A DNA stretch of 27,954 bases, from positions 1-27,954 of the forward strand of contig JBBUBB010000022.1 of assembly GCA_038058445.1 (NCBI GenBank). The letters are read 5' to 3'. Origin of the DNA: Patescibacteria group bacterium (GTDB lineage: Bacteria > Patescibacteriota > Minisyncoccia > Phycocordibacterales > UBA9973). The stretch's first letter is position 1, and every line of letters starts with the position of its first letter. Below the pieces are notes generated by a model that searched no databases, was not told where the DNA came from, and saw only the letters and a program-made list of their open reading frames with translations. Made by a program: the position numbers and the translations under genes. Shown in pieces: positions 15,606 to 27,954 of the stretch.

Positions 15606-16655
15606 ATGCCTAAGAAACCTATAAATATAGACAATTTGAAAATTACTGAACAGAAAGATGGGTCTGTCGAGATCAAGGGTGAAATTTCTTGGAAAGATTT
15701 TAGTGCCTTTGAAAAGAAGGCTCTTGGCCGTTTGTTGGAACACCTAGAAATGCCAGGGTTTAGAAAAGGCAATGTACCAGAGGAAATAGCCAAAAAGCAA
15801 TTAGGAGACCAGCTTATTCTCTCTGATATGGCCGAGCTGGCAATACAAGAGTTCTACCCTACTATTCTCGAAGAGAAAAAGATTGACGCCATCGGTCGCC
15901 CTAATGTCTCTATTACAAAGCTAGCCCGTGACAACGAACTCGGCTTTACTATTACCACCGAAGTTTTACCAAAAATAAAACTGCCTGATTACAAAAAAAT
16001 TGCCAAGAATGCTGAAGCGGTGGCCAAAGTAGCAACTACTGAAGAAGAGATAGATAAGGTGATTGAGGACCTAAGACAAATGCGCGCCTATGGCCATGTA
16101 CACGACCACACCGATGATAGTCATGGGCACACCGAACCTCTCCCAGAGGTAACAGATGAATTTGCCAAATCGTTTGGTAACTTCCAAAGTGTGGCTGACC
16201 TGCGTGCCAAAATCAAAGAAAATGTCCTGCGTGAAAAGGATCAAAACGAAAAAGACAAACGCCGTATTGCTATTATGGACGGTATTATTGCAAAGACTGA
16301 GTTCCTCGTTCCACCAATTATTTTAAAATCAGAACAAGAAAAAATGATCGCTCAAATAGAGTCTGATGTAGCGCGCAGTGGTATGGAGTTTGATGCTTAT
16401 CTCAAACACACCAAGAAAACTCGTGAAGACTTAATGGAAGAATTCAAGGGAGAGGCAGAGCGCCGTGCTCGATTCCAAATACTGATAAACGCTATTGCCA
16501 AAGATATGGATGTAAAAACTACTGATGAAGAAGTAGACAAAGAAGCAGAGAAACTTATGCAAATGTATCCCGGCGCCGATCTGGCTCGAACCAAAGCCTA
16601 CGCGGATATGATACTGACCAACGAGAAAATCCTCTCGACATTAGAGAGTTTATAA
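15606..16655 (+). CDS. tig: Trigger factor lacking the FKBP/PPIase domain
   Basis: Ribosome-binding motif PGFRKGNVP and C-domain LPEVTDEFAK...EAERRAR. At 349 aa, a His-rich loop occupies the FKBP position. Confidence 0.93.
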   Translation: MPKKPINIDNLKITEQKDGSVEIKGEISWKDFSAFEKKALGRLLEHLEMPGFRKGNVPEEIAKKQLGDQLILSDMAELAIQEFYPTILEEKKIDAIGRPNVSITKLARDNELGFTITTEVLPKIKLPDYKKIAKNAEAVAKVATTEEEIDKVIEDLRQMRAYGHVHDHTDDSHGHTEPLPEVTDEFAKSFGNFQSVADLRAKIKENVLREKDQNEKDKRRIAIMDGIIAKTEFLVPPIILKSEQEKMIAQIESDVARSGMEFDAYLKHTKKTREDLMEEFKGEAERRARFQILINAIAKDMDVKTTDEEVDKEAEKLMQMYPGADLARTKAYADMILTNEKILSTLESL

Positions 16656-20704: not shown

Positions 20705-21202
20705 ATGGCAAGTATTCCTCTTGTTGGGAAATTGACTGTGCAGAGGGCTCGTTCATTAATTATTCAGCTAAAGGAAGCTTCTTTGTCATCAAACGTACTC
20801 TATCTTCAAATTAAATCACACGGTGGAAGACTAAGAGCATATGCAGAAATAGCAAATGCTATGTTGGAACTTTCACAAAAAGGTGTGAAGTTTATCGGTC
20901 AAGCAGACGAGGTAGGATCCGCTGCAATGCTAGTCTACTTAAACTGTGATGAACGGTGGGTAAGACCTGGTAGTGGTGGCTTCATTCACTTACCAATACC
21001 TAATAATAAAAAAATGTCAGAAGAGAGTGTGACGCTTGAAAGACAAAAGATAGTTAACTTTATTTCGGAGAGAACTGGACTTTCAAGTGAAAAAATTATT
21101 TCGCTTGATAATATCCCCCTCTTATCAAATGAAATGGTTGTGTATAGAATAGCAACCAAAAAGGTTCCAAGCTTTTCTTTAACACCAGTCGAGCCTGTTT
21201 AA
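20705..21202 (+). CDS. Divergent ClpP/crotonase-fold peptidase (second ClpP-family gene)
   Basis: LQIKSHGG matches YINSPGG, VGSAAM retains the catalytic Ser, ERWVRPGS matches KRFALPNS, and FIHLP retains the catalytic His. 165 aa. Confidence 0.75.
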   Translation: MASIPLVGKLTVQRARSLIIQLKEASLSSNVLYLQIKSHGGRLRAYAEIANAMLELSQKGVKFIGQADEVGSAAMLVYLNCDERWVRPGSGGFIHLPIPNNKKMSEESVTLERQKIVNFISERTGLSSEKIISLDNIPLLSNEMVVYRIATKKVPSFSLTPVEPV

Positions 21203-21219
21203 CAGGTTCGGCTTTTTTT
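21187..21219 (+). terminator. Intrinsic terminator overlapping the stop of the ClpP-like gene
   Basis: 12-bp stem AGTCGAGCCTGT/ACAGGTTCGGCT followed by a T tract. Confidence 0.8.
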
Positions 21220-21241
21220 ATTTGCGCGGTATACTGAGGAC

Positions 21242-23962
21242 ATGTTAGCTCCTAAGGAAACTTTTGAATCCCAAGAACAAGAAATAGCCCATATCGCCAA
21301 TGAATCTCAAAAGGCCTATGTGCTTCAAGAGGGCGGCTCCAAGAGCCCTGAGAGCGCTACCCGGGAAACAATAGAAGAGTACGCTCAGGGACAAGCCAAA
21401 GACTTCTTGCACGAAGCTAGAACCCTCCCAGAACATGAAGCTGAAAGAATCGTCCTACGGTTAAAACCAGAAACCCACGACAAAAAGATAGAAGAGCTCT
21501 TCGGTACCATGATAGAGAAAGGTATCAAGAATGCACTCGATGTAGTGAAGAAAATGAACGACCCTCACCTTGAGGATGATTTCCACCGCTTTCTAGTGCA
21601 GTATTTACACACTATCGGAGCAATCCCGGGGCTGAAAGAAAATGAAGGTTTATACAAAGATTTAAACCACACACTTTTTTCGGTTGTCTTACCTAGTGAA
21701 CCAAGCACAGACAAAGTTGATGACTTCAAAAAGAAGGTCGCTGCCATGGCACAATTTTATACTAGCTTGGTTTCTTTGGTAGGGCTCGATAATACGATTT
21801 CAATAGAACTCGCAGTAGAACACAATCGAAAAGATATCGTGGTCTATGTAGCAGTACCCAAACTTTTGGTGGATGGTTTTGGCAAGTTAGTTTACTCATT
21901 TTTCCCAGGAGCAATAGTCGATGAAGTCGTTGATGACTACAATATTTTTTCCGTCGAGGCTCACTCTTTCTCAGCGAGTGTCGCTCATCTAAAGGAGACA
22001 CCTTACCAACCCCTTAAGACTTATCTCGATTTCGAAAACGACCCCTTTATGGCTATTTTGGGCGCTCTCTCTCAAATTGCTGAAACCGCTGAAGGTTGTG
22101 CTGTCCAAATGGTTCTTTCTGAAAGCCACAATAGAATAGCTGAACGCAATAATCATATTTTGACTGAAGCACTAAACGGTAGTGGGACAGTCAAGGATCT
22201 TTATAAAAAAGCAACAGAAGGAGTTCTAGGAGGGCTGGCCAAAGAAGCCTTCAGTTTATTCAAAAAACCAATAGAAAAAGAGGAGCATGAAAAGAAAATA
22301 GACAACGAGGGTATTGAGCTTCTGAAAAAGAAAAATGATTCTCGCATTGTCCAAGCTACTATCAGAATAGTATCCTCAGCGACCTCACCACAGAGAGCCA
22401 AACACATCAGAGAATCCATCGAGGCACCATTTGGACAGTTTTCATACATTGGTGGGAATGCAATAAAATGGCAAGAGTCCCAAGGCAAAGACCTGATCGA
22501 GACATGCAAGGCTTTTTCTTTTAGAAACCAAGCCGAAAAGTCACTTGAGCTTTCACTAAACGAGGCTTCTTCCTTGGTTCACTTCCCTATTGGCACATCT
22601 TCACCACACGAACTTAAAGAAAAGGACGCTACCTCTGCACCAGCCCCATCTTTTCCAAGTAATTTAGGTATTCATCTGGGTACAAATACTTTCAAGGGGC
22701 AGAAGACGGATATTGTTTTTGCTAAAGAGGACCGTGTAAGACATTGTTATGTTATCGGACAAACAGGTACTGGTAAAACTGTCATGTTAAAAAATATGAT
22801 CATCCAAGATATCAAAAACGGTGACGGCGTTTGCTTTATTGACCCACACGGTACCGACATTGAACACATTCTGGCCAATATTCCTGCTGATCGTATAGAC
22901 GATGTCATTTACTTCGACCCTGCCTATACAGCAAGGCCTATGGGGCTCAACATGCTTGAGTACGATATAAATTACCCAGAACAAAAAATATTTGTCATCA
23001 ACGAGCTCCTAAGCATATTCAACAAACTCTTTGATATGAAAACTGCTGGCGGCCCAGCTTTTGAACAGTATTTCCGTAACTCTGCCGGTCTTGTTATGGA
23101 GGATCCGGAAAGTGGTTCTACCCTACTTGAGATTAGTCGGGTCATGAGTGATAAGGCCTTTCGAACACTCAAATTGTCGAAATGTAAAAACCCAATCATC
23201 AAAGCCTTCTGGGAAAACGCTGAGAAAACTACTGGTGAAGCCTCGCTGGCCAACTTTGTGCCATATATCACCAACAAGTTTGATCCATTTGTTTCCAACG
23301 ATATCATGCGCCCTGTCATTGCCCAACAGCACAGCGTGCTCAACTTCCGAGAAATTATGGATAAAAAGAAAATCCTTTTGGTGAACCTCTCAAAAGGCAG
23401 GCTTGGCGATATAAACTCAAACCTTATTGGACTTTTATTGGTTGGCAAAATCACCATGGCCGCGCTTTCTCGTGTCGACATTGTTGGCAAAGGCCCAGTC
23501 AATGACTTTTATCTTTACATTGATGAGTTTCAAAATGTCACAACTGATTCCATTGCTACCATCTTGTCAGAGGCCCGTAAGTATCGTCTTTCACTCACAG
23601 TGGCACACCAATATATTGAACAACTTGAAGAAAAAATAAAAGATGCGGTCTTCGGTAATGTTGGCACAATGATTATCCACAGAGTGAGCCCAGAAAATGC
23701 TGTAATTTTTGAAAAGCAATTGGCTCCAACATTTACCCCTGAAGACATCCTCAAACTTGAAAACCTAAATTGCTATATCAAAATGTTAGTTGGTGGTGTA
23801 CCAGTTAAGGCTTTCAATTCTGTAACACCATATCCACCAAAAGGAAATCCTGAGATTGTTGAGAAGATCAAAGAACTTTCATACCTCAAATATGGCAGAC
23901 CACGAGAAGAAGTCGAAGCTGAAATCATGGTTCGCTACCAAGCCCGCACCAATCCCTCATAA
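21242..23962 (+). CDS. VirD4/TraG/TrwB-like (HerA/FtsK superfamily) ATPase with a long N-terminal extension
   Basis: Walker A YVIGQTGTGKT, FIDPHG, Walker B LYIDEFQN and LSEARKYRLSLTVAHQ. TATACT lies 6 nt before the ATG. Confidence 0.85.
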   Translation: MLAPKETFESQEQEIAHIANESQKAYVLQEGGSKSPESATRETIEEYAQGQAKDFLHEARTLPEHEAERIVLRLKPETHDKKIEELFGTMIEKGIKNALDVVKKMNDPHLEDDFHRFLVQYLHTIGAIPGLKENEGLYKDLNHTLFSVVLPSEPSTDKVDDFKKKVAAMAQFYTSLVSLVGLDNTISIELAVEHNRKDIVVYVAVPKLLVDGFGKLVYSFFPGAIVDEVVDDYNIFSVEAHSFSASVAHLKETPYQPLKTYLDFENDPFMAILGALSQIAETAEGCAVQMVLSESHNRIAERNNHILTEALNGSGTVKDLYKKATEGVLGGLAKEAFSLFKKPIEKEEHEKKIDNEGIELLKKKNDSRIVQATIRIVSSATSPQRAKHIRESIEAPFGQFSYIGGNAIKWQESQGKDLIETCKAFSFRNQAEKSLELSLNEASSLVHFPIGTSSPHELKEKDATSAPAPSFPSNLGIHLGTNTFKGQKTDIVFAKEDRVRHCYVIGQTGTGKTVMLKNMIIQDIKNGDGVCFIDPHGTDIEHILANIPADRIDDVIYFDPAYTARPMGLNMLEYDINYPEQKIFVINELLSIFNKLFDMKTAGGPAFEQYFRNSAGLVMEDPESGSTLLEISRVMSDKAFRTLKLSKCKNPIIKAFWENAEKTTGEASLANFVPYITNKFDPFVSNDIMRPVIAQQHSVLNFREIMDKKKILLVNLSKGRLGDINSNLIGLLLVGKITMAALSRVDIVGKGPVNDFYLYIDEFQNVTTDSIATILSEARKYRLSLTVAHQYIEQLEEKIKDAVFGNVGTMIIHRVSPENAVIFEKQLAPTFTPEDILKLENLNCYIKMLVGGVPVKAFNSVTPYPPKGNPEIVEKIKELSYLKYGRPREEVEAEIMVRYQARTNPS

Positions 23963-24030
23963 ACCACATAATGAAAGGAATTACTGCCCCGCGTAGCGCA
24001 CGCGAAGTGGAGGTGCTATTATGGGTGCAT

Positions 24031-24861
24031 ATGATAGAAAAAATCCCACCAGAATTAGAAAGTAATATTGAACAAATTGACCATTCTGAACATCAAAACT
24101 TGGGGCCAGAAAGGGTGACTGCGATAGAAGGAGTTGGTTTGAGCCAAAAAGAAATTGATGAAATAGAAAGACTCGAACACCATCTAAAATACGAGGCTAG
24201 TAAAGAGAGTAAGGATGAGAATAAGAAACATAACAATGCTGGGGTACTTTATGGCACCAATAAAGCCCATAAGCAACCGGGTAGACTCAAAAAATGGGCA
24301 GTAGCAGCCTTTGCTGGGCTTCTAAGTCTTGGCGCCTCGGCCAAAGAATCAAAGAATCCTGAAGATAGCCTAAAAAATAAAATGCCAATTGAAAAAATCA
24401 ATCCAGCTGATTCAGTAGAGGTAAGAAGTGGGCTAGATCTAAAAAAATACGAACAGTATGGAATTTCAAGAATCGATGAATTGAAATCAGAAGACTCAAC
24501 CAAACACTTGTTTCTTGTTTCTGTAGAAAAGTACAAGAATTACAACGATATGTTAAGGGCACTTGAAAAAGCTGGTTTAACCCCTGCTTCAACAGAAGAA
24601 ATGGGTAAGGCGTTAGAGAAAAACTCAGAGATATTCAAAAAACATGTCTCTGTTATATCCCTTGATGAGGTTGTGAACAAGCTCGGTAAGCCAAGCTTTA
24701 ACACTATAAATTGGGATAAAAAAGCAAACACATTTCATGGTGGGTCACGCGAAATAGATGCGGGGATAGATGATGACTACGACAACTATGGGATTATAGT
24801 TGAGATCCCTGTCGACAAGAAGGATACAAATTACTCTTCGGGTATAGCAAAAAATAAATAA
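24031..24861 (+). CDS. Hypothetical protein with an internal signal/TM segment (start 24031; 23971 possible)
   Basis: Acidic N-terminal region, then RLKKWAVAAFAGLLSLGASA and a globular C-terminal part. TGCTATTAT lies 8 nt before 24031. Confidence 0.7.
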   Translation: MIEKIPPELESNIEQIDHSEHQNLGPERVTAIEGVGLSQKEIDEIERLEHHLKYEASKESKDENKKHNNAGVLYGTNKAHKQPGRLKKWAVAAFAGLLSLGASAKESKNPEDSLKNKMPIEKINPADSVEVRSGLDLKKYEQYGISRIDELKSEDSTKHLFLVSVEKYKNYNDMLRALEKAGLTPASTEEMGKALEKNSEIFKKHVSVISLDEVVNKLGKPSFNTINWDKKANTFHGGSREIDAGIDDDYDNYGIIVEIPVDKKDTNYSSGIAKNK

Positions 24862-24869
24862 AAGCATAA

Positions 24870-24892
24870 AGCCGCCCCTCCTCTGGGCGGCT
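24870..24892. terminator. Terminator hairpin between convergent genes
   Basis: AGCCGCCC/GGGCGGCT 8-bp stem. Confidence 0.65.
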
Positions 24893-24905
24893 AATTGGTT
24901 TGTTT

Positions 24906-25031
24906 TTATTTTAATAAGGAAAGCTTTTTTCTTAATTCTTTTTCTTCTTTTATTGATTTGTAGAGCAAAATACTCGCCACCACAATTTCAATAAATAAAA
25001 GAGCAACGAAAATGTAAACTAAAGTTATCAT
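24906..25031 (-). CDS. 41-aa single-TM small protein (not in the ORF track)
   Basis: MITLVYIFVALLFIEIVVASILLYKSIKEEKELRKKLSLLK, with its own TTGACA-N17-TATTAT promoter. Confidence 0.6.
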   Translation of the reverse strand: MITLVYIFVALLFIEIVVASILLYKSIKEEKELRKKLSLLK

Positions 25032-25053
25032 TTGGATACGATTTGTTTGTTTT

Positions 25054-25082
25054 ATAATAACCTAAAACTCTTATTTTGTCAA
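25054..25082 (-). promoter_or_regulatory. Near-consensus sigma70 promoter of the 41-aa ORF
   Basis: TTGACA at 25082-25077, a 17-nt spacer, and TATTAT at 25059-25054. Confidence 0.7.
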
Positions 25083-25084
25083 TT

Positions 25085-25112
25085 TTGCATCAAAAAAGCC
25101 TTGCTATATAAT
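25085..25112 (+). promoter_or_regulatory. Sigma70 promoter of hup, back-to-back with the divergent promoter
   Basis: TTGCAT-N16-TATAAT. Confidence 0.65.
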
Positions 25113-25191
25113 GGTGAGAGCGTAAAGCCCCAAGCTTACACGCTCTGACGAAATTATCAGACGAATTCCCAATTTGGGAAAAATAATAATT

Positions 25192-25464
25192 ATGAACAAA
25201 GCAGCACTTGTTGAACTCGTACACAGTATCGTTGGTGGTACCAAGGTACAAGCTGAAGAAGTCATTGAGAACATTATCGGTAGCATCACCAAGACACTCA
25301 AAAAGGGTGAGGAGGTATCTATCGCTGGTCTCGGAATCTTCTCTGTGAAGACCCGCGCAGCTCGTACTGCTCGCAACCCAAAGACTGGTGAGCCAGTAAA
25401 GGTAGCAGCAGCTCGTGTGCCTCGTTTCCGCGCAGCTAAGGCCCTCAAAGACGCCGTTAAATAG
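25192..25464 (+). CDS. hup: DNA-binding protein HU (start corrected to the ATG at 25192)
   Basis: 90 aa: MNKAALVELV...GEEVSIAGLGIFSV...RTARNPKTGE...PRFRAAKALKDAVK. Confidence 0.97.
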   Translation: MNKAALVELVHSIVGGTKVQAEEVIENIIGSITKTLKKGEEVSIAGLGIFSVKTRAARTARNPKTGEPVKVAAARVPRFRAAKALKDAVK

Positions 25465-25496
25465 CATCTCCCTGAGCTCAGGAAAATGCATACAGG

Positions 25497-25531
25497 ATAG
25501 CCCTATCCGCCAGCTGGCGGAGGGCTATTTT
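25497..25531 (+). terminator. hup terminator whose upper stem is the palindromic-repeat core
   Basis: ATAGCCC-TA-TCCGCCAGCTGGCGGA-GGGCTAT-TTT. Confidence 0.75.
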
Positions 25532-25581
25532 GTTTGACTTTTTTTGGAGGTGGAGTAGTATAAATAAAAAATCACTTCTTT

Positions 25582-25953
25582 ATGAGTAAGAAAACCAGCC
25601 TCGTCTTTGTTAGCGGAGGTCCATCGGACGAAATCCGTAATTTTGAAAGAAACATCAAAAAACAGTATTTAACAGGCGACCCGGCTAACTACCCATGCCT
25701 TAGTTTCTTCCACCACTCTTCCGAAAAGGAGATTCTGGAGAAAGTAAGGGCAAAAAAACCGGCGTTCCTGATCTTTGATCATGTAAATGAAGAAAAGATC
25801 CTGCAACTCAAGACAAGCATCCTGAAAAAAACGAACGGAGCCTCTCCTGAGATGATCCACACAGGGATTAATCAGGAAATCCCTAATGTCAGACTTATTG
25901 TTGATCACCCAACAATAGCTGACGAAATTTTCCAACTGATTACCACTAACTAA
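25582..25953 (+). CDS. Small protein with atypical receiver (CheY-like) topology
   Basis: Alternating beta/alpha pattern with EILEKVRAKKPAFLIFD (alpha2-beta3-Asp). Lacks the beta1 acidic pair and the beta5 Lys. Has its own promoter and terminator. Confidence 0.5.
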   Translation: MSKKTSLVFVSGGPSDEIRNFERNIKKQYLTGDPANYPCLSFFHHSSEKEILEKVRAKKPAFLIFDHVNEEKILQLKTSILKKTNGASPEMIHTGINQEIPNVRLIVDHPTIADEIFQLITTN

Positions 25954-25985
25954 AAAAATCCCGCCAAAAGCGGGATCTTATTTTT
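25954..25985. terminator. Bidirectional terminator
   Basis: A-tract-ATCCCGC-CAAAA-GCGGGAT-T-rich, between convergent genes. Confidence 0.75.
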
Positions 25986-26005
25986 TCATAAGGTACAAAC
26001 TAAAA

Positions 26006-27103
26006 TTACAACCGCACATCAATAGGTTTGGGTCTTTTTGAGAGTTGAACCATTTTTCTGAAGTGTGAGACAAAGACACTCCAAAATGTTGGGTATACAT
26101 GGTAAGGAAAATCAAAGTCCTTACACACTTGTTTCACCTTTTCACTGAGTGGCTTATAGTAAACATGACTTACCTCTGGAAATAAATGGTGCTCTATTTG
26201 AAAGTTCAAACCACCAACAAACCAGCTGATAAACTTGTTTCTTGTTGCAAAGTTGGCAGTAGTTGCCATTTGGTGAGCAATCCATTCAAACTTAGTGGCT
26301 ATCTCAATGCTAGGTTGAGAAACTTTCTCTACTATATGAGCCATTTGAAAAACAATGGCAGTAGTAAGCCCAGTAGTAAAAACAAAGATTATGTAACCAA
26401 TAGCCCAAGCTTTAAAACCGACAAATACAATAGGGACAACCCAGAAAAGGGTCACATAAAACACTTTCGTTAACCAGAAGACCTTTCGATCTTTTTTGGT
26501 TATTTTCATTTTATGCTCTCCTACCCGCCCTTTAAAATACTTGTCGAAATCACTCTTCAAGACCCAACCAATGTAGAGAAGCCCGTACATAAGCCAACAA
26601 TAAATTGGCTGTAGCCTATATACTGGCTTCCATGGTTGTTCTTCGTGAAGTCTCAATATCCCATTTTGAGCCACATCATCACCAATACCTTCTAGATTAG
26701 TATAGGTGTGGTGAAGAATGTTGTGCTTAAATTTCCAAAATGAAGAAGTTACACCAAGGAAATTGAATGAAAGCCCAACTAAATTATTAACCCATTTTGT
26801 CTCGGAAAATGAACCATGATTAGCATCGTGCCCCACATTAAAGCCAATTGAAGCAGCAATAAGCCCAAGTGTTATACAAAGTATCACCTTTGTATTTACA
26901 TAAAGATTTCCCCAAACAAGAAGAATGAAGGTGGTTATGAATAGTGCGAACAATATTATCGCCTTATGCCACAACCTCCAATCCCCCGTCTTTACTATTT
27001 CTTCTGGAGTACCCTCCTTGAAATAGTCGGATTCTACCTTTTCTATTGCTAGACCAAATGCTTGGATCTTAGCAAAAGAAGGTCGTTTTTTGGTTACTGA
27101 CAT
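26006..27103 (-). CDS. Membrane-bound fatty acid (acyl-CoA/acyl-lipid) desaturase
   Basis: Three His boxes HDANH, HNILHH and QIEHH; GGLNFQIEHHLFP and VFQMAH motifs; multiple TM helices; no fused cytochrome b5 domain. Confidence 0.92.
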   Translation of the reverse strand: MSVTKKRPSFAKIQAFGLAIEKVESDYFKEGTPEEIVKTGDWRLWHKAIILFALFITTFILLVWGNLYVNTKVILCITLGLIAASIGFNVGHDANHGSFSETKWVNNLVGLSFNFLGVTSSFWKFKHNILHHTYTNLEGIGDDVAQNGILRLHEEQPWKPVYRLQPIYCWLMYGLLYIGWVLKSDFDKYFKGRVGEHKMKITKKDRKVFWLTKVFYVTLFWVVPIVFVGFKAWAIGYIIFVFTTGLTTAIVFQMAHIVEKVSQPSIEIATKFEWIAHQMATTANFATRNKFISWFVGGLNFQIEHHLFPEVSHVYYKPLSEKVKQVCKDFDFPYHVYPTFWSVFVSHFRKMVQLSKRPKPIDVRL

Positions 27104-27142
27104 AAAATTAAATTTAATTTAAAAAGAATTGTTTTCGGTATA

Positions 27143-27151
27143 AGTGTAGCA
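27143..27151 (-). promoter_or_regulatory. Extended -10 promoter of the desaturase
   Basis: TGCTACACT lies 39 nt before the ATG at 27103. Confidence 0.5.
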
Positions 27152-27172
27152 ATATGACAGAAACAAAGCTAT

Positions 27173-27201
27173 TTGACAGCCCCCGAATAAGTGAGTAGTA
27201 T
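27173..27201 (+). promoter_or_regulatory. Sigma70 promoter of the second receiver-like gene
   Basis: TTGACA-N17-TAGTAT. Confidence 0.65.
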
Positions 27202-27217
27202 CAAAGAAAAAAGTACC

Positions 27218-27562
27218 ATGATAAACCACGCTATTACCGAGGAAGTGTTGATGTTGACCTTCTATAGTAACAACTTCCCTATGGCCACAGGGATACCACT
27301 TGAAAAAATAAAGTTAGGCGACCCAAGGGATACAAAGGGGATTAAAAATACCATCAGAAAGCAAGAAATTAAACTGGTGGTAATAGATGGGGCTATCTGG
27401 CTCCCAAGGATTTCCGAGACTGTTGCAGTGGTAAAAAATATTAGAAGAAAAAGACTGCTGAACATTATTATTTGTATAGTCAGCAACCGCGACTTAGAGA
27501 TTGCGGATACAGTCTGGGAAACAGACCCAACTGGGGTACAAAAGTACCTAAAAACTGCCTGA
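27218..27562 (+). CDS. Small protein with atypical receiver-like segment (start corrected to 27218)
   Basis: IKNTIRKQEIKLVVIDG (alpha2-beta3-Asp), an amphipathic helix and IIICIVS (beta4). The track start at 27191 falls inside the promoter. Confidence 0.5.
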   Translation: MINHAITEEVLMLTFYSNNFPMATGIPLEKIKLGDPRDTKGIKNTIRKQEIKLVVIDGAIWLPRISETVAVVKNIRRKRLLNIIICIVSNRDLEIADTVWETDPTGVQKYLKTA

Positions 27563-27584
27563 GCCCACTATGGGCTTTTTATTT
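27562..27584 (+). terminator. Intrinsic terminator
   Basis: AGCCCA-CTA-TGGGCT followed by a T tract. Confidence 0.65.
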
Positions 27585-27619
27585 TGTGTTGTACACCGCG
27601 AAGCTCTGTAGGAGCGTAG

Positions 27620-27640
27620 TGGTGCGGGATAAGGGAGTCG
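27620..27640 (-). repeat. Duplicated 3' end of tRNA-Gly carrying CCA (att-like direct repeat)
   Basis: 27622-27640 is identical to 27764-27782 over 19 bp. The minus strand reads CGACTCCCTTATCCCGCA-CCA. Confidence 0.9.
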
Positions 27641-27763
27641 GTCACGAGTATTTTTCTGATGAAAAATCTCGCTACCCCGCCTCGCGCCAGTCGCGCTCCG
27701 GCTTTCTCCTCCCTGCCTTCACAAACAAAAACACCCAGAAAGGATCTGAGTGTTTTTGTTTGT
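27637..27763 (-). mobile_element. Putative non-autonomous three-hairpin mini-element or island remnant at tRNA-Gly (copy B)
   Basis: Bounded by 19-bp direct repeats 142 bp apart. Contains a 20-bp hairpin, a GCGC-GACTG-GCGC hairpin and a TTTTTC-ATCA-GAAAAA hairpin. A relative lies at 8073-8155. Confidence 0.55.
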
Positions 27764-27764
27764 G

Positions 27765-27835
27765 TGCGGGATAAGGGAGTCGAACCCTTCACCACAGTTT
27801 GGAAAACTGTTATTTTACCGATAAACTAATCCCGC
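27765..27835 (-). tRNA. tRNA-Gly (TCC)
   Basis: GCGGGAT TA GTTT ATCGGTA AAAT A ACAGT TTTCCAA ACTGT GGTG AAGGG TTCGACT CCCTT ATCCCGC A. 71 nt, with CCA not encoded in place. Confidence 0.96.
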
Positions 27836-27883
27836 AATCTTATTATTTTATCAAGAAAACGTTCATTTGAAAGCCTTCTCTTG

Positions 27884-27954
27884 TCGGGGTGCAGGGAATC
27901 GAACCCTGCCCTCATGTTCCCAAAACATGTATACTACCGATATACTACACCCCG
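27884..27954 (-). tRNA. tRNA-Pro (TGG)
   Basis: CGGGGTG TA GTAT ATCGGTA GTAT A CATGT TTTGGGA ACATG AGGG CAGGG TTCGATT CCCTG CACCCCG A. 71 nt, with CCA not encoded. Confidence 0.96.

What the first reader, a model, noticed from the sequence alone, without database searches (positions are those of the whole stretch)
26006..27103. Intact fatty acid desaturase in a lineage thought to lack fatty acid synthesis
Seen: a full-length gene with all three His boxes (third box QxxHH, front-end/DesA3-like type), its own promoter and terminator, and no adjacent reductase or cytochrome b5. Known: these di-iron enzymes need O2 and an electron donor, while CPR genomes generally lack FAS II and respiration and are thought to take lipids from hosts. 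Inference: the cell remodels scavenged lipids and meets oxygen. The sequence style recalls Bacteroidota desaturases, which could point to a donor or host.
Basis: partly seen in the sequence, partly recalled or inferred. Interest (0 to 1): 0.8.

Follow-up and report, generated by a model that had tools for sequence, protein, structure and literature searches.

The report
Lipid desaturase in fatty-acid-less CPR bacterium
A tiny groundwater bacterium of the CPR group, with no detectable genes for making fatty acids, keeps an intact oxygen-dependent membrane-lipid desaturase, probably to edit lipids taken from other cells; such genes are fairly common in CPR, and what supplies the enzyme's electrons is unknown.

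Summary
Window 26006-27103 (-) encodes a 365-aa PF00487 desaturase with boxes HDANH, HNILHH and QIEHH. Its nearest characterised relatives are the cyanobacterial acyl-lipid Delta6 desaturases DesD (29-30% identity, TM 0.89).

The genome is CPR (Paceibacteria-type; 0.58 Mb, 92% complete). No FabF/B, FabZ/A, ACP, acyl-activating enzyme or PlsY was found in it or in four relatives; PlsC was found in one relative only. None of 51 genus genomes has a terminal oxidase, while 48 have superoxide dismutase.

The gene is not an assembly artefact. Read depth is even, and the gene order ClpP-RNase Y-...-HU-desaturase recurs in independent assemblies. It is not a recent Bacteroidota import either. It sits beside HU in 12 of the 16 genus genomes that carry it, dN/dS is about 0.13, and one origin within the genus is not rejected (AU p 0.45). 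The closest relative lacks exactly this 1,135-bp gene segment.

Desaturase-family genes are not rare in CPR: 16/51 in the genus, 49/301 in the order sample, 44/401 in the phylum sample. This scan had already flagged at least 30 such cases on other DNA.

The open puzzle is the electron donor. No ferredoxin, flavodoxin or FNR-type reductase was detected. Two cytochrome b5-like genes lie elsewhere but do not track the desaturase.

The parts
26006..27103 (-). Membrane fatty-acid (acyl-lipid type) desaturase, 365 aa, with His boxes HDANH, HNILHH and QIEHH
   Evidence: ORF. PF00487 at 132.8 bits. Invariant His and Gln ligands in 65 homologues. AlphaFold2 pLDDT 92.3. Best reviewed matches are DesD Q54795 and Q08871, TM 0.89.
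25955..25979 (.). Bidirectional intrinsic-terminator-like hairpin shared by the desaturase (-) and the convergent small gene 25582-25953 (+)
   Evidence: Terminator scan hits on both strands. The hairpin is conserved (90.6% over 32 nt) in the closest relative L210, which lacks the desaturase.
27104..27190 (-). 87-bp divergent intergenic region that must hold the desaturase promoter. No consensus minus-strand site was found. The plus-strand TTGACA-17-TAGTAT site at 27173-27201 serves the neighbouring small gene.
   Evidence: The part from 27118 onward is conserved in L210.
25983..27117 (.). 1,135-bp presence/absence segment: the desaturase CDS plus 23 bp and 14 bp of flank. It is missing from the closest relative's otherwise collinear contig.
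   Evidence: By blastn, window 25951-25982 aligns to L210 17535-17566, and window 27118-27312 aligns to L210 17564-17759. L210's RNase Y is 91% identical to the window's.
27191..27562 (+). Small receiver-like (CheY/flavodoxin-like fold) gene transcribed divergently from the desaturase. The true start is probably the ATG at 27218.
   Evidence: No Pfam hit. ESM Atlas fold matches to response-regulator receiver and B12-binding domains, TM 0.68-0.75. Homologues at the same position in 7 other genus loci. 47% identical homologue in L210, without a desaturase.
25582..25953 (+). Small receiver-like gene convergent with the desaturase. It is probably a distant paralogue of 27191-27562 and is not specific to desaturase-bearing genomes.
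   Evidence: Atlas fold. Found in 11 of 51 genus genomes, 7 of them without a desaturase. jackhmmer 48-53 bits; hhalign probability 69%, E 4.5e-5.
25174..25464 (+). HU-family DNA-binding protein gene, the conserved anchor of the locus
   Evidence: PF00216 at 101 bits. Lies beside the desaturase in 11 other genus genomes and within 3.6 kb in one more.

Best explanation
The gene encodes a functional, oxygen-dependent, di-iron membrane desaturase of the front-end (DesD-like) clade.

Likely substrate (inferred). The cell has no fatty-acid synthase, no acyl carrier protein, no acyl-CoA or acyl-ACP synthetase, and no PlsY or PlsC acyltransferase. The only available substrate is therefore acyl chains already esterified in membrane glycerolipids obtained from other cells. 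The enzyme would work as an acyl-lipid desaturase. It would introduce a cis double bond in situ to tune the fluidity or packing of a scavenged membrane when O2 is present. [quoted passage not shown]

What is shown:
- The gene is intact and its catalytic residues are conserved.
- It belongs to the CPR chromosome.
- It lies at a conserved locus within the genus and is under purifying selection.
- Lipid-synthesis and respiration genes are not detected.

Evolution. The gene is an accessory trait, present in about a third of species in the genus. It was probably acquired once by an ancestor of the genus and then repeatedly lost. The loss includes a clean 1.1-kb deletion in the closest known relative.

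What remains open. The substrate class and physiological role are inferred. The electron supply is unknown, because no ferredoxin, flavodoxin, 2Fe-2S protein or FNR-type reductase was detected.
For: Identity and integrity of the enzyme.

Closest characterised relatives. These are the cyanobacterial sn-1 acyl-lipid Delta6 desaturases DesD (29-30% identity, TM 0.89, E about 5e-23), followed by the eukaryotic front-end desaturases. DesD desaturates lipid-bound saturated and monoenoic chains without a b5 fusion (PMC9775110).

CPR chromosome, not a chimera:
- RNase Y relatives are named Paceibacterota.
- The gene order ClpP-RNase Y-...-903-aa ATPase-HU-small ORF-desaturase recurs in an NCBI MAG and on a 134-kb JGI contig.
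- Word depth is an even 8-10x across 21000-27260, and unitigs bridge both gene junctions, in groundwater runs from three studies.
- GC (0.38) and GC3 (0.36) match the neighbouring genes.

Vertical descent and selection:
- HU is adjacent in 11 other genus genomes.
- The AU test does not reject one clade for all 27 genus rows (p 0.454).
- dN/dS is 0.13 at dS 0.77.
- The ranking of relatives by RNase Y identity and by desaturase identity agrees.

No acyl-chain synthesis or activation. PF00109, PF07977, PF00550, PF00501 and PF02660 are each 0 of 5 genomes; PF01553 is found in one relative only.

Oxygen contact. SOD is in 48 of 51 genus genomes and oxidases in 0 of 51. The habitat is groundwater and drinking water.

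Literature. It already proposes that CPR take intact lipids from other cells and modify them (PMC7242380).
Against: - No activity, transcript or lipid data exist, and no RNA run was listed.
- No known electron donor for this enzyme class was found. Fer2 is 0 of 5 genomes, flavodoxin 0 of 5, NAD_binding_1 0 of 5, and Fer4_7 0 of 51. No 4Fe-4S or rubredoxin motif was seen in G000 ORFs.
- The genome is 92% complete in 100 contigs, so absences in G000 alone are weak. They rest mainly on the relatives.
- Two thirds of the genus, and the closest relative, do without the gene. Its role is therefore conditional.
- The family also contains hydroxylases and other lipid-modifying enzymes, so the chemistry is not proven by sequence.
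Confidence: 0.7

Rival explanations
1. The gene is a recent horizontal import from a Bacteroidota (Chitinophagales/Cytophagales) donor, which might also be the host.
For: All closest named non-CPR homologues are Bacteroidota, at 40-50% identity. Some other CPR desaturase clades do nest among Bacteroidota sequences in the tree.
Against: - The query falls in a well-supported CPR-only clade of 14 sequences (100/99) with 52-62% identity.
- The locus is syntenic across deep branches of the genus.
- Base composition matches the genome.
- One origin for the genus is not rejected.
- With the outgroup used, the genus sequences are basal to the Bacteroidota rather than nested within them, although backbone support is weak.
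Confidence: 0.1
2. The protein is a di-iron membrane enzyme with a different chemistry or substrate. Examples are a lipid hydroxylase, or a desaturase of sphingoid, alkyl or isoprenoid chains.
For: PF00487 includes hydroxylases and ketolases. There is a weak NCBIfam hit to the CrtR beta-carotene hydroxylase (E 7e-4). No equivalog model is reached: DesB scores 63.8 bits against a 500-bit cut-off. Identity to characterised enzymes is only about 30%.
Against: The top 30 reviewed structural matches are all fatty-acid desaturases. The closest are full-length matches at TM 0.89. The QxxHH third box is the front-end desaturase signature (established knowledge; PMC9775110 for the class).
Confidence: 0.12
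3. The gene is an inactive relic. Without ferredoxin, flavodoxin or a reductase it cannot turn over, and it is on its way to being lost.
For: No canonical donor was detected in the genus. The gene is absent from 35 of 51 genus genomes and is cleanly deleted in the closest relative.
Against: All metal ligands are invariant across sequences as little as 37% identical. dN/dS is about 0.13. 15 of the 16 genus copies are open frames without stops; the G011 match spans one TAA in the protein search. That pattern is unlike decay.
Confidence: 0.06
4. The gene is a misassembly or binning artefact and does not belong to the CPR genome.
For: The gene lies about 850 bp from a contig end, in a fragmented MAG of 100 contigs.
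Against: The same gene order occurs in independent assemblies. Depth is even and unitigs bridge the junctions in four runs. The flanks are collinear with the desaturase-less relative L210.
Confidence: 0.02

Closest known systems
Cyanobacterial acyl-lipid Delta6 desaturase DesD (Synechocystis sll0262, UniProt Q08871; Limnospira Q54795)
   Same: Same length class (359-368 aa). No cytochrome b5 fusion. Same pattern of three His boxes with Gln in the third. Full-length structural match at TM 0.89 and 29-30% identity. DesD acts on chains already esterified in membrane lipids and can act as the first desaturase on saturated chains (PMC9775110).
   Different: DesD works in a cell that makes its own fatty acids and has abundant ferredoxin. 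Here neither is detectable. Regiospecificity is unknown. Identity is only about 30%, so this is not an orthologue.
Bacteroidota 'acyl-CoA / linoleoyl-CoA desaturase' family (Chitinophagaceae, Hymenobacteraceae and others; uncharacterised, automatic names)
   Same: These are the closest non-CPR sequence relatives at 40-50% identity over the full length, with the same architecture. They too have no conserved redox partner next to the gene.
   Different: The hosts are aerobic, free-living and lipid-autonomous. The query clade is separate and well supported. The function of this family is itself untested.
Eukaryotic front-end desaturases (Delta4/5/6/8; for example FADS2, Mortierella Delta5, Physcomitrium Delta5)
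   Same: QxxHH third box and the same desaturase-domain fold, TM 0.8-0.9 by query.
   Different: They carry an N-terminal fused cytochrome b5 domain, which this protein lacks. Identity is 17-30%.
Mycobacterium tuberculosis DesA3 (Rv3229c), the NADPH-dependent stearoyl-CoA Delta9 desaturase with partner reductase Rv3230c
   Same: TM 0.76, 22% identity.
   Different: More distant than DesD. It needs an adjacent FNR-type oxidoreductase and acyl-CoA. No NAD_binding_1 or Fer2 protein and no acyl-CoA synthetase were found here.
Bacillus acyl-lipid desaturases (B. subtilis Des Delta5; B. cereus DesB Delta10, NCBIfam NF052549)
   Same: Membrane phospholipid desaturases used to adapt existing membranes. 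DesB is the best NCBIfam model hit (E 1.6e-17).
   Different: The score of 63.8 bits is far below the 500-bit equivalog cut-off. By my own knowledge of the Bacillus system, those enzymes draw electrons from ferredoxin or flavodoxins; neither was detected here.

Membership tests
Membrane fatty-acid desaturase superfamily (Pfam PF00487) | Profile match above the curated gathering score | tested here: met
   132.8 bits against a 29.7-bit cut-off, covering profile positions 6-252 of 253.
Membrane fatty-acid desaturase superfamily (Pfam PF00487) | Three histidine boxes that ligate the di-iron centre, in order and conserved | tested here: met
   HDANH at 92, HNILHH at 127 and QIEHH at 302. All ligand positions are invariant in 65 homologues.
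Membrane fatty-acid desaturase superfamily (Pfam PF00487) | Two membrane-spanning hydrophobic hairpins (four TM helices) flanking the His boxes | tested here: met
   Hydrophobic stretches at about 43-92 and 208-255. Long helices at 42-64, 69-95, 203-228 and 230-256 in the model.
Membrane fatty-acid desaturase superfamily (Pfam PF00487) | O2- and electron-dependent dehydrogenation of an acyl chain | not testable with these tools
   Needs expression and GC-MS.
Front-end / DesD-like desaturase clade | Gln replaces the first His of the third box (QxxHH) | tested here: met
   QIEHH; Q302 is invariant in 65 sequences.
Front-end / DesD-like desaturase clade | Nearest characterised relatives are front-end desaturases | tested here: met
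   Foldseek against Swiss-Prot models: DesD ranks first (TM 0.89, 29-30% identity). Ranks 3-13 are Delta4/5/6-type front-end enzymes.
Front-end / DesD-like desaturase clade | N-terminal cytochrome b5 fusion (eukaryotic members only) | tested here: not met
   No PF00173 domain in the protein. Cyanobacterial DesD also lacks it, so this excludes only the eukaryotic subtype.
Front-end / DesD-like desaturase clade | Double bond placed between the carboxyl end and C9 (Delta4-Delta8) | not testable with these tools
   Regiospecificity cannot be read from the sequence.
Front-end / DesD-like desaturase clade | Ferredoxin (bacterial) or cytochrome b5 (eukaryotic) as the electron donor encoded by the cell | tested here: inconclusive
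   Fer2 0 of 5 genomes, Fer4_7 0 of 51, flavodoxin 0 of 5. Two Cyt-b5 domain proteins are present in G000. They are probably extracytoplasmic, and they are not co-distributed with the desaturase: 6 genomes have both, against 5.96 expected by chance.
DesA3-type acyl-CoA desaturase system (M. tuberculosis) | Partner FNR-like oxidoreductase (FAD/NAD-binding plus 2Fe-2S), usually adjacent | tested here: not met
   The neighbours are small receiver-like ORFs and HU. PF00175 and PF00111 are each 0 of 5 genomes.
DesA3-type acyl-CoA desaturase system (M. tuberculosis) | Acyl-CoA substrate pool | tested here: not met
   No AMP-binding (acyl-CoA synthetase) family gene in 5 genomes, against 12 of 14 control genomes.
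Bacillus DesB Delta10 desaturase (NCBIfam NF052549 equivalog) | Score above the equivalog cut-off | tested here: not met
   63.8 bits against a 500-bit cut-off.

The most novel reading that the evidence does not exclude
These ferredoxin-, flavodoxin- and quinone-oxidase-free cells drive a di-iron membrane desaturase with an unconventional electron chain. Candidates are an NDH-2/NorW-like or TrxR-like flavoprotein acting directly, one of the bacterial cytochrome b5-like proteins, or the small receiver-fold protein conserved divergently upstream. If so, CPR bacteria would hold a previously undescribed minimal redox partner system for membrane desaturases. They would also actively re-tailor host-derived lipids in response to oxygen.
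Probability: 0.25. Interest if true: 0.7.

Novelty: new member of a known kind. Interest (0 to 1): 0.45.

Why it matters
CPR/Patescibacteria are described as unable to make membrane lipids, and how they build and maintain membranes is an open question (PMC9166423, PMC7242380). An intact, selected desaturase in a cell with no acyl-chain synthesis or activation genes suggests that at least some lineages do more than passively adopt foreign lipids. They may edit them, and they would need O2 to do so.

The survey here tempers the surprise. Desaturase-family genes occur in roughly one in ten to one in three sampled CPR genomes, and public annotations already name them.

What remains interesting is mechanistic. 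No conventional electron donor is detectable in a whole genus, so the partner system is unknown. The gene is also a cleanly gained-or-lost accessory trait. That gives natural plus/minus pairs for lipidomic comparison.

Tried and rejected
- Donor hunt among neighbours. The two flanking 123-aa ORFs have a CheY/flavodoxin-like fold. The downstream family also occurs near HU in 7 genomes without a desaturase. The upstream one persists in L210, which lacks the desaturase. I therefore treat them as residents of the neighbourhood, not proven partners.
- Cytochrome b5 as donor. Two b5 genes were found. There is no co-occurrence with the desaturase in the genus: 6 genomes have both, against 5.96 expected. 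The closest desaturase-bearing relative, G047, has none. An N-terminal anchor with a Ser/Thr/Pro linker, or an anti-sigma-like architecture, suggests an extracytoplasmic location.
- Conserved redox partner next to the Bacteroidota homologues. None was found; the neighbours are PIG-L, DUF4294, GldB, CcmF, NAD synthase and similar.
- Sequence search of the PDB. It gave no relative, only spurious aprataxin hits. Foldseek against the PDB gave only a desaturase-like subunit of the algal Ycf2/Orf2971-FtsHi complex, and AlkB.
- Naming CPR relatives from genome contigs. Lineage was taken from the RNase Y hits instead.
- Literature. No paper in the searchable library discusses fatty-acid desaturases in CPR. 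The hits concerned carotenoid desaturases or viral auxiliary metabolic genes.
- Transcription. No RNA run was listed.
- Desaturase remnants beside HU in desaturase-less genus genomes. None was found within 1.5 kb.
Full report
**1. What is there**

The window is the whole of contig C22, the longest contig of a 578,508-bp, 100-contig genome rated 92.4% complete and 0.5% contaminated.

The ORF at 26006-27103 (-) is 365 aa. It matches Pfam PF00487 at 132.8 bits over almost the whole profile. It carries HDANH (residue 92), HNILHH (127) and QIEHH (302). In alignments of 16 and 65 homologues every ligand position is invariant: H92, D93, H96, H127, H131, H132, Q302, H305, H306, plus H256, H313 and H347.

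Hydropathy shows two long hydrophobic hairpins. An AlphaFold2 model built on 65 sequences is confident (pLDDT 92.3, pTM 0.90) and almost entirely helical.

A G+C-rich hairpin with T runs on both strands (25955-25979) follows the stop codon. No consensus minus-strand promoter was found in the 87-bp upstream spacer. The gene is convergent with one neighbour and divergent from the other, so it is monocistronic.

**2. What kind of desaturase**

Foldseek against reviewed UniProt models ranks the matches as follows:
- First, the cyanobacterial sn-1 acyl-lipid Delta6 desaturases DesD (Q54795, Q08871): 29-30% identity, TM 0.89, E about 5e-23, full length.
- Then the eukaryotic b5-fused front-end desaturases.
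- Then M. tuberculosis DesA3: 22% identity, TM 0.76.

The best NCBIfam model is Bacillus DesB Delta10, but far below its equivalog cut-off (63.8 bits against 500). No solved structure is related by sequence. Foldseek against the PDB finds only a desaturase-like subunit of the algal Ycf2/Orf2971-FtsHi complex, and AlkB.

DesD acts on lipid-bound chains, including saturated ones, and has no b5 domain (PMC9775110).

**3. Whose gene it is**

The window encodes PGK, TIM, type IV pilus proteins, NusA, pyrophosphatase, trigger factor, ClpP, RNase Y, a TrwB-like ATPase and HU. The closest RNase Y relatives are 81-91% identical. Those that carry a name (81-84% identical) are named Candidatus Paceibacterota/Pacebacteria or Patescibacteria. 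The genome is therefore CPR.

The closest desaturase homologues (52-62% identity) lie on contigs with the same gene order: ClpP, RNase Y, a roughly 903-aa ATPase, a roughly 310-aa protein, HU, a small ORF, then the desaturase. These contigs are an NCBI MAG and a 134-kb JGI contig.

In groundwater runs from three studies, word depth is an even 8-10x across 21000-27260. Unitigs bridge both gene junctions without differences. GC (0.380) and GC3 (0.358) match the neighbouring genes. Misassembly and contamination are effectively excluded.

**4. Evolution**

Distribution of PF00487:
- Within the GTDB genus: 16 of 51 genomes.
- In a 301-genome sample of the order: 49 over the cut-off.
- In a 401-genome sample of the phylum: 44 over the cut-off.

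Most hits outside the genus belong to other desaturase subfamilies. Only a few score high against the profile of this subfamily: L115, L117 and L147, and more weakly L150-L155.

Position of the gene in the genus:
- Beside HU in 11 other genus genomes.
- 3.6 kb from HU in one more.
- Elsewhere in three (G005, G054, G061).

A careful IQ-TREE of 83 sequences puts the query in a starred CPR-only clade of 14 (100/99). The other genus sequences form several long-branched clades around the base of a Bacteroidota radiation, and backbone support is weak. An AU test does not reject a tree in which all 27 genus sequences form one clade (p 0.454).

dN/dS is 0.13 for a pair with unsaturated dS of 0.77. The ranking of relatives by RNase Y identity and by desaturase identity agrees.

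The closest relative found has RNase Y 91% identical and sits on a 39.5-kb Logan contig, L210. It is collinear with the window from NusA to the tRNA-Gly region but lacks the desaturase. Window 25951-25982 (the terminator hairpin) aligns to L210 17535-17566, and window 27118 onward aligns directly after it. A 1,135-bp segment holding only the gene is therefore present in one and absent in the other.

The same site is occupied in more distant genus members. Loss in the L210 lineage is therefore the more parsimonious reading. Recombinational exchange of the islet between HU and the tRNA genes cannot be excluded.

The closest named non-CPR relatives are all Bacteroidota, at 40-50% identity. However, neither the tree nor the composition supports a recent Bacteroidota donor.

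**5. Metabolic context**

In G000 and four desaturase-bearing relatives (93-99% complete), each of the following was 0 of 5 genomes, and every search had positive controls:
- Ketoacyl synthase
- FabA/FabZ
- ACP
- AMP-binding acyl-activating enzymes
- PlsY

A PlsC-type acyltransferase was found in only one relative. Heme-copper oxidase and cytochrome bd oxidase were each 0 of 51 genus genomes. Fe/Mn superoxide dismutase was in 48 of 51, including G000.

The 'no FAS II, no respiration' premise therefore holds for those genomes searched, and contact with oxygen is independently plausible. Without any acyl-CoA or acyl-ACP pool, the only sensible substrate is acyl chains already in membrane lipids. 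That fits the DesD-type relatives. This step is inference.

**6. The electron-donor gap**

Di-iron membrane desaturases need two electrons per turnover (established knowledge). The searches gave:
- 2Fe-2S ferredoxin: 0 of 5 genomes.
- Flavodoxin: 0 of 5.
- FNR-type NAD_binding_1: 0 of 5.
- Dicluster 4Fe-4S domain: 0 of 51, against 14 of 14 controls.
- No CxxCxxC...CP or rubredoxin motif in real ORFs of G000.

What is present:
- TrxR/AhpF-like (about 309 aa) and NDH-2/NorW-like (about 413 aa) flavoproteins. In G000 these are fragments at contig ends.
- Two cytochrome b5-domain proteins. One is a 123-aa N-terminally anchored protein. The other is a 437-aa DUF5667 protein next to an ECF sigma factor. 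Only 1 of the 14 control genomes has this domain.

Both b5 proteins keep the HPGG and second-His heme ligands. Their architecture suggests an extracytoplasmic location. Across the genus, b5 and the desaturase are independent: 19 and 16 of 51 genomes respectively, with 6 having both against 5.96 expected.

The Bacteroidota homologues have no conserved redox neighbour either. The donor is therefore unidentified. This is the most interesting residue of the finding.

**7. Neighbours**

Both flanking 123-aa ORFs lack Pfam hits. Their predicted fold is CheY/flavodoxin-like.

The upstream, divergent ORF has homologues in the same position in seven other genus loci. It also has a 47% identical homologue in the desaturase-less L210.

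The downstream ORF's family occurs in 11 of 51 genus genomes, seven of them without a desaturase, usually near HU.

Profile comparison suggests that the two families are distant paralogues: jackhmmer 48-53 bits; hhalign probability 69%, E 4.5e-5. They look like residents of a variable islet between HU and the tRNA genes rather than dedicated partners.

**8. Novelty and score**

The enzyme type is known. The searchable literature states that no fatty-acid synthesis or beta-oxidation was found in freshwater CPR genomes (PMC9166423). It proposes that CPR scavenge and modify lipids (PMC7242380). It catalogues O2-using enzymes in CPR (PMC12577380). I found no paper discussing CPR fatty-acid desaturases. 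However, public annotations already name these proteins. They are common in CPR genomes. This scan has recorded at least 30 similar cases, one of them also DesD-like.

I rate it a new member of a known kind, of moderate interest. The missing electron donor and the clean presence/absence pair are the parts worth following up.

Noticed in passing
L208:950-1321 (+) and L207:1329-2642 (-) (G000 contigs C8 and C33): Two cytochrome b5-domain proteins in a CPR genome. One is a 123-aa protein with an N-terminal anchor and a Ser/Thr/Pro linker. The other is a 437-aa DUF5667 protein with a C-terminal b5 domain directly downstream of an ECF sigma factor, an anti-sigma-like layout. Both keep HPGG and the second heme His. 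The domain is in 19 of 51 genus genomes but only 1 of 14 control genomes.
   Followed up: partly
window 25582-25953 (+) and 27191-27562 (+): The two small ORFs that bracket the desaturase have a CheY/flavodoxin-like predicted fold and seem to be distant paralogues. The family sits near HU across the genus whether or not the desaturase is present. Function is unknown. A stand-alone receiver next to a desaturase recalls DesK/DesR control in Bacillus, but this is only an analogy.
   Followed up: partly
window 25546-27621 compared with L210:17148-18034: The stretch between HU (90% nt identity to L210) and the tRNA-Gly region (97.6%) is a variable islet. The slot of the first small ORF holds an unrelated 112-aa gene in L210. 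The desaturase is absent there. Only the terminator hairpin and the second small ORF are shared.
   Followed up: partly
whole genus (51 genomes), searched from G000: No 4Fe-4S dicluster (Fer4_7) domain in any of 51 genus genomes, and no Fer2 or flavodoxin in the five tested, although all 14 control genomes have Fer4_7. These cells appear to lack classical low-potential electron carriers altogether.
   Followed up: partly
window 27496-27954: Contig word depth jumps from about 8x to 55-144x over the tRNA-Gly and tRNA-Pro genes and the hairpin-rich element before them, with many loose ends. The sequence is shared by many community members, which probably explains why the contig ends here.
   Followed up: no
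window 15606-16655 (+): The trigger factor has Trigger_N and Trigger_C domains but no detectable FKBP-type PPIase domain (349 aa).
   Followed up: no
   Followed up: no
L013 (CAVRJL010000015.1, labelled uncultured Negativicutes): A desaturase that nests among Chitinophagaceae sequences sits on a 228-kb contig of a MAG labelled Negativicutes. This is probably a mislabelled or misbinned Bacteroidota genome, or a transfer.
   Followed up: no
L101, L102, L103 (G061, G005, G054): Three genus genomes carry their desaturase away from the HU locus, and these copies group near the base of the Bacteroidota clade. This could be a second acquisition or a relocation. The AU test does not distinguish the two.
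   Followed up: partly
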